Source: a virus (Duplodnaviria; Caudoviricetes). Taken from it: DNA of 53,650 nucleotides. Under the pieces are notes generated by a model. The model was not told the DNA's origin and ran no database searches. It saw nothing but the letters and a program-made list of their open reading frames with translations. The stretch lies in the IMG/VR virus record IMGVR_UViG_3300035161_000034, positions 1 through 53,650 of that record; one strand, given 5' to 3'. Made by a program: the position numbers and the translations under genes. Numbering within the stretch: position 1 is the first letter of the stretch; each line of letters opens with the position of its first letter. Below, piece by piece: positions 10,203 through 13,291 of the stretch.

Positions 10203-12608
10203 ATGGGCGAGATCAAACTACTAGCTTTCGATCTGGAAACTCCGCAGGTTGAGCCGAGTTATGGCCTGCAACCGTGGCGGCTGAAGACCGGTGAAGCGGT
10301 GATTCAGAGCTATGCCGCATGGTCGGAAGACGGCATTATTTGCGGCGCGAAAAAGCGGCCATCCGTTGCCCTGCTGCGGGGATTCTTGCAACTTGCCGCC
10401 GTCAGGGGTTACACGCTGGTCGGCTGGAATGTGCTGTTCGATGTGGCTTGGCTGGTCGCTGCCGGGTTAATGCCGGAATTGAAAAAATGTCAGATTCTTG
10501 ACGCCATGCTATTATTAAAGCACGTCGATCCGTGGCTGGACAAGGCGCACGGCGGACCCGGCTTCGGGCTGAAGTCGGCAGTCGCGCGAGCTTGGCCGGA
10601 ACATGCCGCGTATGCGGCTGAAGTCGATGTCACGCTGGTGCCTGAGACTGCGGAAGAATGGACGCGATTGCTGCGCTATAACCTCGACGACAGCCGCTTT
10701 ACCGGTCGGCTGGCGCGGGAATATCTCAACGTACTATCACAGTCTGAGATACAGAACTGCCTGATCGAGGCAAGTTCGATCCCGGATGTGGCGCTGTCAT
10801 ACATCAATGGCATCCACATCAACGAGGCGGCAATCAAACCGTTTCGCGAGCAGGTGCAGATCATGCAGGATGAAGCCATGCCGGTGTTCGGCGCGACGGT
10901 TGATGTAGTTCGATCCCCGAAAAAACTGGCCGAACTGCTGTTCGACAAGTGGGGGTACGAGCCGGTCGGCCAAACCAAGACCGGCAATCCGTCAACGGAC
11001 AAGGAATCGTTGATGAAACTGGCGATTGAAAACCCGCAGGATGAACGCTTTGCCGCGTTGATGAAACTGCGTAAGTGCAACACCAAAAGCAGCAAGTTTT
11101 TAGGTGGCGTAATCAAGGCAATGGAATACCACGGCGAACCGGTGGCACGACCAGCACCGGCGATTTCCGGCACGATGACGGGACGCTTTGTTTATTATTC
11201 GACGCAAGGCAAGAACAAGGGGCTGATTCAGACCGGCATCGCCCTGCACCAGTGGGAACGCGACCGCGAAACGCGCGATCTGTTGACCGCGCCACCGGGG
11301 TATCTGCTCGCGGAGTTTGACTTTTCCGGGCAGGAAATGCGCCTGATGGCAATCCTGTCGGAAGACGATGTGATGCTGGATCTGTTCGCCAATGGCGGCG
11401 ACGGCCATGCCTACATGGGTGCCAGCATTGAAGGCGTGGATTATGACTGGGTGCGGCAAAAAGCGGATGTGGATAAGAACGCCAAGGCGATCCGCAACCT
11501 TGGCAAGTTTTGTGTGATGGAAGGGCAACCGGTGCTGACCGAGCGTGGACTGGTGCCGATTGAAAAGATCCGGCTGAACGACCGGGTGTGGGATGGCGTG
11601 GAATGGGTGACTCATTCCGGCGCGGTCTATCAAGGAGAATGCGATGTCATGTACTACCAAGGAATCTGGCTTACCCCGGACCACTATGTCTGGTGTGAGG
11701 GACGACATGAGCCGGAAAGATTTTACCAAGCTGCATCCCAAAGGCTACAACTCACTCGTACCGGAAATGGTGGGCGTAAAATTCGGTGCGTGGACGATTG
11801 TATCCGACGAGATTACCCGCAGCCCGAACCATCCCCGCACCGTGCGGGTGAAGGTCAAATGCGGCGGGTGCGGCACCCGGCAATGGATTACGCTGTCCAG
11901 TCTGATCGACCACCAGTCGAAGTATTGCACCCGGTGCAGCGTGAAACGGCGACCCAAGGCGACGATCCAGCTATTCAATCTTTCCAAACCCAAAGTAATG
12001 TAGCCGTATGGGATATTACCAATGCCGGACCGCGCCGCCGTTATACCGTGTGCGACCGGCTGGTGAGCAATTCCAACCTGTCGTTGCAGTACCGGATCGG
12101 GGTGGATTCGATCATGTCCCGCGCGTTGACGCAATATAACCTGCAACTCTCAAGGCATAAGGCGCAGCATATCAAGACGACCTACCTGCAAACTTACAAG
12201 CAGGTGCCGCAGTACTGGCATCAGGCGATTAACCGGGCAACCATGAAGAAGTATGCCGAATCACTGGGCGGACGGCGCATCCCGCTGACCGATCTGAATG
12301 TGTACCAGCAGCAGCAGACCGCGATCAACTTTCCGATTCAGGCGACCGGCGGCGATATGAAGGCGCTGGCACTGGCGGTTTCGCGCAATCTGTTCGATAA
12401 TGACTTCATTTATGCATGGGATCTGCATGACGCCTTGTTCGTGTACGTGAAGAACGATCAGAAGGCAAAGGGGCGTATCCTCGCCATGCAGAAGATTTTA
12501 AGCCACCTGCCATACGGTGCGGCATGGGGCTGGCATCCGAGCATTGATTTGCCGGTGGACGCCAAGGTCGGCAGGACTTGGGGCACATTAAGCGCCGTAC
12601 AATCATAA
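10203..12608 (+). CDS. polA: family A DNA polymerase with 3'-5' exonuclease, intein-interrupted
   Basis: ExoI FDLET; TGR; motif A DFSGQEMR; motif B RNLGKF|SNLSLQY split by the intein; INFPIQ; motif C LHDA. Confidence 0.95.
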   Translation: MGEIKLLAFDLETPQVEPSYGLQPWRLKTGEAVIQSYAAWSEDGIICGAKKRPSVALLRGFLQLAAVRGYTLVGWNVLFDVAWLVAAGLMPELKKCQILDAMLLLKHVDPWLDKAHGGPGFGLKSAVARAWPEHAAYAAEVDVTLVPETAEEWTRLLRYNLDDSRFTGRLAREYLNVLSQSEIQNCLIEASSIPDVALSYINGIHINEAAIKPFREQVQIMQDEAMPVFGATVDVVRSPKKLAELLFDKWGYEPVGQTKTGNPSTDKESLMKLAIENPQDERFAALMKLRKCNTKSSKFLGGVIKAMEYHGEPVARPAPAISGTMTGRFVYYSTQGKNKGLIQTGIALHQWERDRETRDLLTAPPGYLLAEFDFSGQEMRLMAILSEDDVMLDLFANGGDGHAYMGASIEGVDYDWVRQKADVDKNAKAIRNLGKFCVMEGQPVLTERGLVPIEKIRLNDRVWDGVEWVTHSGAVYQGECDVMYYQGIWLTPDHYVWCEGRHEPERFYQAASQRLQLTRTGNGGRKIRCVDDCIRRDYPQPEPSPHRAGEGQMRRVRHPAMDYAVQSDRPPVEVLHPVQRETATQGDDPAIQSFQTQSNVAVWDITNAGPRRRYTVCDRLVSNSNLSLQYRIGVDSIMSRALTQYNLQLSRHKAQHIKTTYLQTYKQVPQYWHQAINRATMKKYAESLGGRRIPLTDLNVYQQQQTAINFPIQATGGDMKALALAVSRNLFDNDFIYAWDLHDALFVYVKNDQKAKGRILAMQKILSHLPYGAAWGWHPSIDLPVDAKVGRTWGTLSAVQS
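11511..12071 (+). mobile_element. intein, 187 aa, in polymerase motif B
   Basis: Cys1 CVMEGQPVLTERG; block B LTPDH; block F VWDI; terminal LVSN followed by Ser+1; removal restores motif B. Confidence 0.92.
11707..12003 (+). CDS. nested +1-frame zinc-finger protein inside the intein
   Basis: GVKFGAWTIV...KCGGCG...L....SKYCTRC; GAGG 6 nt before ATG11707; alternative ATG11644 has AAGGAG 6 nt upstream. Confidence 0.7.
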   Translation: MSRKDFTKLHPKGYNSLVPEMVGVKFGAWTIVSDEITRSPNHPRTVRVKVKCGGCGTRQWITLSSLIDHQSKYCTRCSVKRRPKATIQLFNLSKPKVM

Positions 12609-13011: not shown

Positions 13012-13027
13012 TTTGGAGAGATTAATC

Positions 13028-13291
13028 ATGCCGAAGAAATATCCCCGTAATTACAAACGCGAACTGGAGTTGCAGAAAAAACGCGGCGACGACAAGAACA
13101 AGGCGCTGCGCATGAAGGCGCGGCGGAAGATGGTTAAACTCGGCTTGGTTAAAAAAGGTCAGGACGTAGACCATAAAAAGCCACTCAGCAAAGGCGGCGC
13201 GGCAACAGCCGTCAGCAACCTACGTGCGGTTTCACCCAGTAAGAACCGCAGTTTTAAACGCACCAGCAAAGGTGCTATCAAGGGAGACTAA
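13028..13291 (+). CDS. small HNH endonuclease
   Basis: DVDHKKPLSKGG...SNLRAV....NRS. Confidence 0.85.
   Translation: MPKKYPRNYKRELELQKKRGDDKNKALRMKARRKMVKLGLVKKGQDVDHKKPLSKGGAATAVSNLRAVSPSKNRSFKRTSKGAIKGD

What the first reader, a model, noticed from the sequence alone, without database searches (positions are those of the whole stretch)
11644..12003. A second gene hidden in the +1 frame inside the DNA polymerase intein
Seen: the 187-aa intein (11511-12071) has no in-frame endonuclease. Its central insert reads as featureless R/P/Q-rich sequence (RRDYPQPEPSPHRAGEGQMRRVRHP). The +1 frame over the same DNA is open from 11644 to 12003 and stops at the start of intein block F. It encodes GVKFGAWTIV...VKCGGCG.....LSSL....SKYCTRC, which has two CxxC pairs. 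Both candidate starts have Shine-Dalgarno sequences 6 nt upstream: AAGGAG for ATG11644 and GAGG for ATG11707, the latter just after block B. Established: intein homing endonucleases are normally in frame between blocks B and F, and the G.xFG.xTV...C..CG...C..C pattern resembles the N-terminal zinc module of free-standing phage HNH/AP2-type endonucleases. Inference: an endonuclease gene invaded the intein out of frame, is translated separately, and has shrunk to a zinc-finger DNA-binding module while both frames stayed stop-free. I see no catalytic HNH motif. Caveat: the AAGGAG overlaps ordinary intein codons and could be coincidental. I cannot confirm whether this architecture is already described.
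Basis: partly seen in the sequence, partly recalled or inferred. Interest (0 to 1): 0.88.

Follow-up and report, generated by a model that had tools for sequence, protein, structure and literature searches.

The report
Remnant out-of-frame endonuclease gene in intein
The +1-frame reading frame inside this phage's DNA polymerase intein is the shortened front end of a homing endonuclease gene that related inteins carry whole in that shifted frame, a rare but already described arrangement.

Summary
PolA (10203-12608) carries a 187-aa intein (11511-12071) whose middle is featureless in frame, and a 119-codon +1 ORF (11644-12003) overlaps it.

Openness alone is weak evidence: shuffling frame-0 codons leaves the +1 frame open in 4-9% of trials. 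Homology is decisive. An HMM built without the window hits only this ORF in the six-frame window (E 2.2e-9, model positions 1-62 of 189).

In 80 IMG/VR relatives of the intein, 56 of 57 long inteins hold the full gene in the +1 frame, labelled PHROG 374 'HNH endonuclease'. None holds it in frame. In 35 unique 309-aa inteins the most variable codon position switches from frame 0 to +1 across the insert. Frame 0 has no stops there, against 12.8 expected.

The window keeps only the four-cysteine N-terminal module plus an SD-like site and ATG. The catalytic part is deleted, so I read it as a decaying remnant. Translation and DNA binding are untested.

Out-of-frame endonucleases in inteins are already in print (2025-2026 preprints, which cite Gorbalenya 1998). 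My searches found no paper on this PolA family. Verdict: new member of a known kind, moderate interest.

The parts
10203..12608 (+). Family A DNA polymerase gene (801 aa precursor), intein included
   Evidence: Pfam PF00476 E 1.4e-41 and PHROG 17 E 1.1e-48; a single open frame.
11511..12071 (+). Intein, 187 aa, inserted in polymerase motif B (RNLGKF | SNLSLQY)
   Evidence: Cys1, T55-x-x-H58, terminal Asn187 and Ser+1. The AF2 model matches solved inteins: NpuDnaE 4kl5_A at E 7.8e-4, prob 1.00, TM 0.71 on the target.
11511..11780 (+). N-terminal splicing domain (intein residues 1-90)
   Evidence: pLDDT 90-98; 42-56% identical to 80 IMG/VR relatives.
11796..11985 (+). Frame-0 linker (about intein residues 96-158), read through but not a folded domain
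   Evidence: pLDDT 42-47 over residues 100-150 with no secondary structure. No similarity to the frame-0 inserts of relatives.
11986..12071 (+). C-terminal splicing domain (about intein residues 159-187)
   Evidence: pLDDT 96-97; D168, G173, R177, L184 and N187 invariant in 46 sequences.
11644..12003 (+). +1-frame ORF, 119 codons plus stop: truncated endonuclease gene
   Evidence: Gene callers on two metagenome contigs called the same ORF from later ATGs (P0001 98 aa, P0002 105 aa).
11632..11637 (+). AAGGAG, 6 nt upstream of ATG11644 (Shine-Dalgarno-like)
   Evidence: In the 309-aa relatives an SD-like motif lies 4-10 nt before the +1-frame ATG at intein nt 146 in 26 of 31 sequences. The window's ATG is at intein nt 134.
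11697..11700 (+). GAGG, 6 nt upstream of ATG11707
11767..11964 (+). Part homologous to the N-terminal zinc module of the intein-nested endonucleases; begins at ATG11767, the family's conserved 'MVG' ATG at intein nt 257
   Evidence: HMM positions 1-62 of 189, E 2.2e-9. 40% identity over 60 aa to the Gardnerella phage +1 ORF. ATG at nt 257 in 32 of 35 relatives. pLDDT 87-90 for residues 1-50.
11860..11871 (+). First CxxC pair (C32, C35 of the product counted from ATG11767)
   Evidence: Invariant in 37 of 37 aligned sequences.
11926..11937 (+). Second CxxC pair (C54, C57)
   Evidence: Invariant in 37 of 37 aligned sequences.
11965..12003 (+). Non-homologous tail and TAG stop, downstream of the deletion that removed the catalytic part
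   Evidence: Outside the HMM match; pLDDT 49-55. The last two codons differ in variant P0001, by changes that are silent in frame 0.

Best explanation
The window's PolA gene carries a class-1 intein in motif B. This intein belongs to a large phage family whose homing endonuclease is not fused in frame. It is a separate gene read in the +1 frame of the DNA between the two splicing domains.

In full-size members (about 255-330 aa) the +1 gene encodes an N-terminal four-cysteine module followed by a domain that PHROGs label HNH endonuclease. Frame 0 over the same DNA is only a stop-free, disordered linker. It is kept open because the polymerase must be translated through it and then spliced.

In the window, a deletion that preserved frame 0 removed the catalytic two thirds of the +1 gene. 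What remains is an SD-like site, an ATG, a 41-aa leader that overlaps the splicing domain, the zinc module and a 20-residue unrelated tail.

I read this as a homing endonuclease gene part-way through decay, with the intein on its way to a mini-intein. It can no longer cut DNA and so cannot drive homing. It may still be translated into a small zinc-binding protein, but nothing requires that.

Shown here: homology, frame, family-wide selection on +1, selection for an open frame 0, and loss of the catalytic part. Inferred: decay rather than a new function, splicing competence, and internal initiation.
For: 1. Homology in the +1 frame only. tblastn of the ORF against phages lands inside annotated DNA polymerase CDSs of Gardnerella phage vB_Gva_AB1 (E 2e-4), Streptococcus phage PhiSdyV1524 (E 7e-3) and Javan422 (E 0.4), each time in the +1 frame of the CDS. 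For the insert alone, +1 gives 40% identity over 60 aa, and frames 0 and +2 give nothing. The HMM built without the window gives E 8.4e-10 / 2.2e-9.

2. Full-length versions exist. The +1 ORFs of L002 and L003 hit PHROG 374 'HNH endonuclease' at E 6.6e-24 and 9.5e-23. L053, L067 and L024 hit it at E 1e-25 to 1e-30.

3. Survey of 80 IMG/VR loci, the best 80 of 411 relatives. Of 57 long inteins, 56 have the +1 gene. Of 10 loci whose intein end I could not place, 9 have it. Of 13 mini-inteins, 2 hold remnants and 11 hold nothing. There were 0 hits in frame 0 or +2.

4. Frame-specific selection in 35 unique gapless 309-aa inteins. The most variable position is frame-0 position 3 at nt 1-189 (0.44-0.63), +1 position 3 at nt 253-819 (0.44-0.62), and frame-0 position 3 again at nt 883-927.

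5. Frame 0 is kept open. There are 0 stops in 35 of 35 sequences. Synonymous randomisation of the +1 codons gives a mean of 12.8 stops and is stop-free in 3 of 7000 trials.

6. Structure. The intein's splicing domains are confident and match solved inteins, and the frame-0 insert is disordered. Residues 1-50 of the +1 product have pLDDT 87-90.

7. Decay series. Remnants of different extent occur in Javan422 (HMM 1-48, second CxxC lost), L062 (1-29 plus 77-101) and L057 (1-22).

8. No assembly artefact. Contigs of runs X3, X8 and X11 cross the intein with no inserted or deleted letters.
Against: The remnant looks better kept than a long-dead gene. All four cysteines and 4 of 5 near-invariant residues are retained. 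It keeps an SD-like site plus ATG at about the family's position. Its fold is predicted with confidence. Its identity to relatives (0.34-0.38) is only about 0.5-0.9 SD below that of intact genes at similar intein divergence (0.42-0.48, sd 0.12). So the deletion may be recent, or the module may still be under selection.

I could not measure selection in the window's own lineage. Only 3 substitutions were seen, and 34 variant rows were not shown.

The SD-like motifs overlap conserved frame-0 codons and could be by-products. No expression data exist.

The label 'HNH' is a PHROG name. No Pfam HNH model matches, and no PDB relative is found by profile. The position where I expect the first His, a motif recalled from memory, is an invariant Arg in 36 of 36 sequences.
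Confidence: 0.78

Rival explanations
1. The shortened ORF is still a working gene. On this reading a small zinc-binding DNA-binding protein is translated from the +1 frame and kept for its own sake, for example by binding the polymerase motif-B target site or regulating expression. That would be a domesticated endonuclease DNA-binding module.
For: The four Cys are invariant and retained. AAGGAG lies 6 nt before ATG11644. pLDDT is 87-90 over residues 1-50. Divergence is only slightly above that of intact relatives. Two independent metagenome contigs carry the ORF intact.
Against: The near-invariant Gly49 is replaced by His. The tail is unrelated and unstructured. All 3 known substitutions change the +1 product and are silent in frame 0 (codon assignment inferred from single-base changes). 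The profile search among proteins of 41-139 aa found only 5, one of them the window's own, so there is no sign of a family of stand-alone modules. Remnants in other inteins stop at different points, which fits decay. The +1 frame stays open by chance in 4-9% of shuffles.
Confidence: 0.15
2. In the family, the endonuclease is not initiated internally. Instead it is made by ribosomal frameshifting from the polymerase frame, giving an N-extein-intein(N)-endonuclease fusion. The window's ORF would then be the dead end of such a shift.
For: The conserved ATG at intein nt 257 has no SD-like motif in 0 of 32 sequences. The +1 frame is free of stops from codon 48 onward in all 35 sequences. The sister clade uses the other shifted frame, +2.
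Against: An ATG at nt 146 is present in 31 of 35 sequences and has an SD-like motif 4-10 nt upstream in 26 of those 31. +1-frame stops are common right up to codon 47, just before it. I did not look for slippery sites.
Confidence: 0.04
3. The ORF is a chance open frame in G+C-rich DNA and its motifs are coincidental.
For: Codon shuffles leave the +1 frame open in 9% (78 codons) or 3.9% (130 codons) of trials. The window ORF has no Pfam or PHROG hit below E 0.006.
Against: The HMM hit at E 2.2e-9 is unique among 860 segments. The frame, the position (ATG at intein nt 257) and the cysteine spacing match 36 relatives.
Confidence: 0.01
4. Two compensating sequencing or assembly frameshifts hide what is really an in-frame domain.
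For: None found.
Against: The contigs of three runs show no indels across the intein. The same frame offset is seen in 7 named phage genomes and 67 IMG/VR loci. No relative has the domain in frame 0 (0 of 80).
Confidence: 0.01

Closest known systems
Cyanobacterial DnaX intein with an out-of-frame LAGLIDADG homing endonuclease (Phillips, DeSimone, Gogarten, bioRxiv 10.64898/2026.09.14.751524; I read the abstract, Results and one Discussion section)
   Same: A bona fide intein whose in-frame middle is disordered. The endonuclease is read in a shifted overlapping frame. Selection follows the shifted frame across the insert. Mini-intein alleles lacking the endonuclease coexist with full ones.
   Different: The host gene is dnaX of bacteria, not a phage PolA. 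The endonuclease is LAGLIDADG in the +2 frame, not the zinc-module/'HNH' type in +1. The window holds a truncated remnant rather than a full gene or a clean mini-intein.
Actinobacteriophage inteins with non-canonical endonucleases (Gosselin, Arsenault, Gogarten, bioRxiv 10.1101/2025.01.02.630785; I read passages and one Discussion section)
   Same: [quoted passage not shown] The authors propose that a free-standing endonuclease gene invaded an intein, and they predict decay to mini-inteins.
   Different: Their out-of-frame case is an endonuclease VII-like gene in frame 3, and HNH appears there only in frame. Their text names 'DNA polymerase' among the four host protein types. Which polymerase and which architecture may be in supplements that I could not open.
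ShiLan domain: hidden HNH endonuclease in a phage methylase insertion (Arsenault, Gosselin, Gogarten, Genes 2025, PMC11855218; I read the abstract, Discussion and passages)
   Same: An HNH-type gene with flanking zinc fingers is read out of frame inside an insertion that stays stop-free in the host gene's frame. How it is translated is open.
   Different: That insertion has no splicing domains and is thought to stay in the protein. Here the carrier is a recognisable intein.
PolA motif-B inteins of Jerseyvirus, Dhillonvirus and EBPR siphovirus 2 (GenBank records NC_028698, NC_013600, NC_073068, JF412297)
   Same: Homologous intein and homologous endonuclease (PHROG 374 at E 8e-47 and 7e-32). 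The endonuclease is out of frame and frame 0 is open. The Salmonella and Sodalis phage inteins sit at the same motif-B position as the window's.
   Different: The endonuclease is in the +2 frame, not +1, and is full length. The SO-1 record annotates the nested gene (gp39) but calls it a group I intron.
Fractured genes with split inteins and a free-standing endonuclease gene between the halves (Dassa et al. 2009, PMC2677866; passages read)
   Same: A separately translated endonuclease gene lies between the two intein halves.
   Different: There the host gene is broken into two ORFs and splices in trans. Here one continuous frame reads through the endonuclease gene.

Membership tests
Intein (Hint-fold protein-splicing element, class 1) | N-terminal Cys/Ser (block A) and block B T-x-x-H | tested here: met
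   C1, T55 and H58 are invariant in 46 aligned sequences, the window included.
Intein (Hint-fold protein-splicing element, class 1) | C-terminal Asn followed by Cys/Ser/Thr of the C-extein | tested here: met
   ...LVSN|S at 12069-12074. N187 is invariant.
Intein (Hint-fold protein-splicing element, class 1) | Penultimate His (block G) | tested here: not met
   The window has Ser186 where at least 90% of 46 sequences have His. L067 and L077 also end in SN. From memory, some active inteins lack this His.
Intein (Hint-fold protein-splicing element, class 1) | Hint fold | tested here: met
   The AF2 model has pLDDT of 90 or more for residues 1-90 and 160-187. Foldseek's top hits are solved inteins (4kl5_A at E 7.8e-4, prob 1.00), followed by dozens more inteins.
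Intein (Hint-fold protein-splicing element, class 1) | Protein splicing that restores an intact host protein | not testable with these tools
   Joining the exteins gives a motif-B-like RNLGKF-SNLSLQY. Splicing itself needs an expression assay.
Intein with an out-of-frame (overlapping) homing endonuclease gene | Endonuclease homologue read in a shifted frame between the splicing domains, with frame 0 open across it | tested here: met
   The window's +1 ORF matches HMM positions 1-62, and frame 0 is open. The relatives carry the full gene in +1 in 56 of 57 long inteins.
Intein with an out-of-frame (overlapping) homing endonuclease gene | Purifying selection on the shifted frame across the insert | tested here: inconclusive
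   It is clear in 35 relatives. In the window's own lineage only 3 substitutions are known, all silent in frame 0 and lying at the edges.
Intein with an out-of-frame (overlapping) homing endonuclease gene | Complete endonuclease with its catalytic domain | tested here: not met
   HMM positions 63-189 are absent from the window's ORF and from the rest of the window.
HNH (beta-beta-alpha-Me) endonucleases | Match to a curated HNH model | tested here: not met
   There is no Pfam family at E<=0.01 for 5 full-length out-of-frame ORFs, nor at E<=1 for L002. The PDB profile search found nothing at E<=1. Only PHROG families annotated 'HNH endonuclease' match (374, 3377, 2081). The window ORF itself matches none of them.
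HNH (beta-beta-alpha-Me) endonucleases | Catalytic His-Asn-His/Asn signature (signature recalled from memory) | tested here: inconclusive
   In 36 full-length sequences the invariant residues of the motif are D131, R132, N143 and N155 (D-R-I-D...GN...N). Arg stands where I expect the first His. The window lacks this region altogether.
Zinc ribbon / four-cysteine zinc module | Two CxxC pairs at conserved spacing | tested here: met
   C32, C35, C54 and C57 are invariant in 37 of 37 sequences. Metal binding was not tested. Foldseek found no solved look-alike at E<=0.001.

The most novel reading that the evidence does not exclude
The zinc module was not simply left behind. After the catalytic domain was lost, the intein or the phage kept translating a small +1-frame DNA-binding protein that recognises the polymerase motif-B target. 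It could, for example, shield intein-free or related alleles from cutting by endonucleases of co-infecting relatives, or tune polymerase expression. That would be a domesticated fragment of a homing endonuclease, encoded entirely inside the disordered linker of a spliced-out protein.
Probability: 0.1. Interest if true: 0.8.

Novelty: new member of a known kind. Interest (0 to 1): 0.55.

Why it matters
Inteins are usually taught as in-frame fusions of a splicing domain and an endonuclease. The few out-of-frame cases in print are used to argue that free-standing endonuclease genes invade mini-inteins.

The window belongs to what may be the largest such set so far. There are 411 tblastn-confirmed relatives in IMG/VR, of which I examined 80. 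The endonuclease was never in frame in those 80: it is +1 in this clade and +2 in the Jerseyvirus/Dhillonvirus/EBPR clade.

The set also holds a graded series of decay products, and the window is one of them. Some members sit in easily grown coliphages, so two open questions become testable at the bench: how an endonuclease buried in another gene's frame is translated, and whether it drives homing.

For annotation, the lesson is practical. These polymerase genes hide a second gene that gene callers almost never report. Only 5 proteins of 41-139 aa matched the profile in 5.8 billion clusters.

Tried and rejected
Close relatives of the window's phage were not obtained. The search for related loci with the intein on viral contigs found no relative, and with PolA on metagenome contigs found none. 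The best phage PolA match is about 30% identical. The lineage-specific selection test therefore could not be done.

Read laying gave contigs only. 34 of 74 variant rows were not shown, so I cannot say where X11's remaining differences lie. No RNA holder was listed, which says nothing about expression. No joint (intein-free allele) appeared in the four runs laid, which is no proof of absence.

The window ORF alone gave no significant Pfam or PHROG match. Foldseek of its model found no solved analogue, with a best E of 0.28. The PDB profile search with the full-length family found none. No sigma-70-like promoter lies in 11300-12200.

Chance ORF and assembly frameshift were considered and rejected; see the rival explanations.

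Literature. Searches found the out-of-frame architecture for other inteins, but no paper describing it for PolA motif-B inteins. The APSE paper only mentions loss of the polymerase intein. Gorbalenya 1998 is not held, and I know it only through citations. Those of Gosselin et al. may list polymerase inteins that bear on novelty.

Full report
WHAT IS THERE

The window is a virus record. ORF 10203-12608 on the + strand encodes a family A DNA polymerase (Pfam PF00476 E 1.4e-41, matched in two stretches; PHROG 17 E 1.1e-48). Between RNLGKF and SNLSLQY of motif B lies a 187-aa insert, 11511-12071. It starts with Cys and has T-P-D-H at residues 55-58. It ends in Asn and is followed by Ser.

An AlphaFold2 model built on 46 aligned sequences is confident for residues 1-90 and 160-187 (pLDDT 90-98). 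It has no structure for residues 100-150 (pLDDT 42-47). Foldseek places it among solved inteins: NpuDnaE 4kl5_A at E 7.8e-4 and probability 1.00, followed by dozens of other inteins. So the element is an intein, and its in-frame middle is not a domain.

It runs from ATG11644 to TAG12003 (119 codons), and the +1 frame is open from 11611. AAGGAG lies 6 nt before ATG11644, and GAGG lies 6 nt before ATG11707.

IS IT MORE THAN CHANCE?

Openness alone is weak evidence. When the frame-0 codons are shuffled, the +1 frame stays stop-free over 78 codons in 1791 of 20000 trials, and over 130 codons in 789 of 20000. The ORF has no significant Pfam or PHROG hit of its own.

Homology settles the question. 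A tblastn of the ORF against 50,697 phage records gave 6 records. The three best lie inside annotated DNA polymerase genes of Gardnerella phage vB_Gva_AB1, Streptococcus phage PhiSdyV1524-fexAoptrA and Streptococcus phage Javan422. In each case the match is offset by +1 from the annotated CDS.

I then restricted the comparison to DNA downstream of the splicing domain, so that conservation of the intein frame could not leak into the result. There the +1 product is 40% identical over 60 aa to the Gardnerella +1 product. Frame 0 and frame +2 of the same DNA show nothing (best E 4.5 and 10).

I built an HMM from five full-length sequences, without the window or Javan422. It matches the window's +1 ORF at E 8.4e-10 over model positions 1-62 of 189. 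This is the only hit among 860 open segments of the six-frame window (E 2.2e-9).

WHAT THE RELATIVES SHOW

In the Gardnerella and PhiSdyV1524 phages the intein is 309 aa. The +1 frame there holds ORFs of 267 and 195 aa that match PHROG 374 'HNH endonuclease' (E 6.6e-24 and 9.5e-23). Frame 0 over the same DNA is an open, basic, featureless stretch.

A pattern scan of IMG/VR with the N-terminal splicing domain found 411 confirmed relatives, and the best 80 were kept. I translated all three forward frames of each and searched them with the HMM:
- Of 57 inteins of 255-442 aa, 56 carry the gene in the +1 frame with at least 140 model positions. The exception is L080.
- Of 13 mini-inteins of 120-157 aa, 11 carry nothing and 2 carry fragments (L057, L062).
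- In 10 loci I could not place the intein's end. Four are cut by the contig end, and the others end in a different extein context. Nine of the ten have the +1 gene.
- No locus has a hit in frame 0 or frame +2.

Three further +1 ORFs taken from these loci hit PHROG 374 independently (E 1e-25 to 1e-30).

SELECTION

Forty inteins are exactly 309 aa, and 35 of them are unique. They align without a single gap. Mean pairwise diversity by codon position shows which frame is being read:
- In nt 1-189 the most variable position is the third position of frame 0 (0.44-0.63).
- From nt 253 to 819 it is the first position of frame 0, which is the third position of the +1 frame (0.44-0.62, against 0.13-0.28 for frame-0 third positions).
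- In nt 883-927 it returns to frame 0.
- The two transition windows are depressed at all positions, as expected where both frames matter.

Conversely, frame 0 has no stop over the endonuclease span in any of the 35 sequences. Rewriting the +1 codons with synonymous codons, drawn from each locus's own extein usage, gives a mean of 12.8 frame-0 stops and a stop-free result in 3 of 7000 trials.

So two things are selected in the full-size family: the +1 protein, and an uninterrupted frame 0. That is what an essential polymerase needs if it must be translated through a nested gene and then spliced.

HOW THE NESTED GENE MAY START

In the 35 sequences, +1-frame stops are frequent up to codon 47 and absent afterwards. 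An ATG follows at intein nt 146 in 31 of 35. Of those 31, 26 have an SD-like motif 4-10 nt upstream. The ATG of the conserved 'MVG' at nt 257 is present in 32 of 35 but has no such motif in any.

Internal initiation at the upstream ATG is therefore my preferred reading. The motifs overlap conserved frame-0 codons (R/K-E-V and Y-D/E), so they could be by-products. Frameshifting is not excluded.

The window has its SD-like site and ATG 12 nt upstream of the family's position, and it keeps the nt-257 ATG exactly (11767).

WHAT HAPPENED IN THE WINDOW

The window's +1 product aligns with the first 62 model positions. That region holds the invariant C32, C35, C54 and C57 and four of the five near-invariant residues. 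Gly49 is replaced by His. After that it runs into about 20 unrelated residues and a stop.

AlphaFold2 gives pLDDT 87-90 for residues 1-50 and 49-55 for the tail. The catalytic two thirds of the gene is nowhere else in the window. The intein is 187 aa, against 255-330 aa for the intact forms, so a deletion that kept frame 0 removed it.

Other inteins hold remnants cut at other points:
- Javan422: model positions 1-48, with the second CxxC lost.
- L062: positions 1-29 plus 77-101.
- L057: positions 1-22.

This graded series, together with clean mini-inteins, is the expected picture of endonuclease decay after an intein stops homing.

RELIC OR LIVE GENE?

I could not measure selection in the window's own lineage. 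The phage occurs in metagenomes of nine studies. Contigs from X3, X8 and X11 cross the intein without indels. X3 and X8 show no differences inside 11631-12172, but 34 variant rows were withheld.

Two near-identical ORF variants from metagenome contigs differ from the window at three residues: R to K, V to A and M to T. If each is a single base change, all three are silent in frame 0 (GAG>GAA, AGT>AGC, AAT>AAC; read). They lie over the splicing-domain edges, so they say little about the zinc module itself.

The module's identity to relatives (0.34-0.38) is somewhat below that of intact genes at comparable intein divergence (0.42-0.48, sd about 0.12).

I put about 0.8 on a decaying remnant that may or may not still be translated, and about 0.15 on a retained small DNA-binding protein.

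COMPARISON WITH WHAT IS KNOWN

The architecture is in print. [quoted passage not shown] It proposes invasion of inteins by free-standing endonuclease genes followed by decay to mini-inteins.

A 2026 preprint shows a +2-frame LAGLIDADG gene in the cyanobacterial DnaX intein, with frame-dependent selection, and credits Gorbalenya 1998 with the first hint.

A 2025 paper describes a hidden HNH gene in a non-intein insertion of a phage methylase.

None of my eight literature searches found this arrangement described for PolA motif-B inteins. In the 2025 preprint, HNH appears only as an in-frame type. The GenBank record of Sodalis phage SO-1 does annotate the nested gene (gp39), but as a group I intron.

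I therefore file the family as a new member of a known, rare kind, and the window's copy as a degenerate example of it.

The name 'HNH' needs a caveat. It rests on PHROG labels. Pfam HNH models do not match, and no solved structure is found by profile. The motif's invariant residues are D-R...N...N, with Arg where I would expect the first His (the expectation is recalled from memory).

SCORES

Novelty: new member of a known kind. Interest: 0.55.

The window's ORF is probably a relic. The family it reveals is large and clean, and it is partly available in cultivable coliphages.

Noticed in passing
L004 2345-3091, L005 2330-3091, L006 2330-3091, L007 2312-3106: In Salmonella phage f18SE (Jerseyvirus), Sodalis phage SO-1, Escherichia phage Pubbukkers (Dhillonvirus) and EBPR siphovirus 2, the homologous endonuclease lies in the +2 frame of the PolA intein, not +1. 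Frame 0 is open (PHROG 374 at E 8e-47 and 7e-32). Of the 60 rows listed, 39 have a 'polymerase' feature under the endonuclease match. I checked frames in only six named records.
   Followed up: partly
L005 2333-3091 (NC_013600 gp39): The SO-1 GenBank record annotates the nested ORF as an HNH endonuclease and notes a 'type I self-splicing intron'. However, the polymerase frame reads through it and the flanks have intein blocks, so the intron note looks like a misannotation.
   Followed up: partly
window 11508-11513 and 12069-12074; L001-L007: There are two insertion points four residues apart in motif B. The window, the Jerseyvirus/Dhillonvirus phages and several IMG/VR loci (such as L067 and L077) have the intein after position 6 (GKF|S, GKA|C). 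The Streptococcus and Gardnerella phages, EBPR siphovirus 2 and most IMG/VR loci have it after position 10 (ELA|C). Yet the window's intein sequence is closer to the second group (Streptococcus/Gardnerella phages). This was read by eye from the translations.
   Followed up: partly
L080, L086, L059, L040, L068, L071: The same intein family also sits at a second polymerase site, ending ...HN|C(E)N/VIVQALAR near the C-terminus. L086 and L059 carry the +1 gene there. L080 (442 aa) and L040 gave no hit to the endonuclease HMM in any forward frame.
   Followed up: no
alignment A5 (36 full-length +1 ORFs from IMG/VR loci): The endonuclease family has an invariant D-R-I-D...GN...N with Arg where an HNH His would be expected. 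It has no Pfam HNH match and no PDB relative by profile search. Its catalytic chemistry is therefore open.
   Followed up: partly
window 12173-12259: In the contig of run X8, nine substitutions cluster 100-190 nt downstream of the intein, with none in the 540 nt before them. Two of the nine (12227, 12259) recur in X3. This could be a recombination or co-conversion boundary next to the intein.
   Followed up: no
window 13013-13291 (+): A 92-aa ORF just downstream of PolA contains ...DVDHKKPLSKGG...N..., which looks like a small free-standing HNH protein of another type. That motif is recalled from memory and no search was run.
   Followed up: no
L034, L023, L057, L041 (mini-inteins): In several mini-inteins the +1 frame still begins with MV(G/N)xQ(Y/F)GWV and then runs straight into the +1 reading of the C-terminal splicing blocks (…ARL.FMTYEMP…VLPYR). 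This shows deletions of different sizes with the same left end.
   Followed up: no
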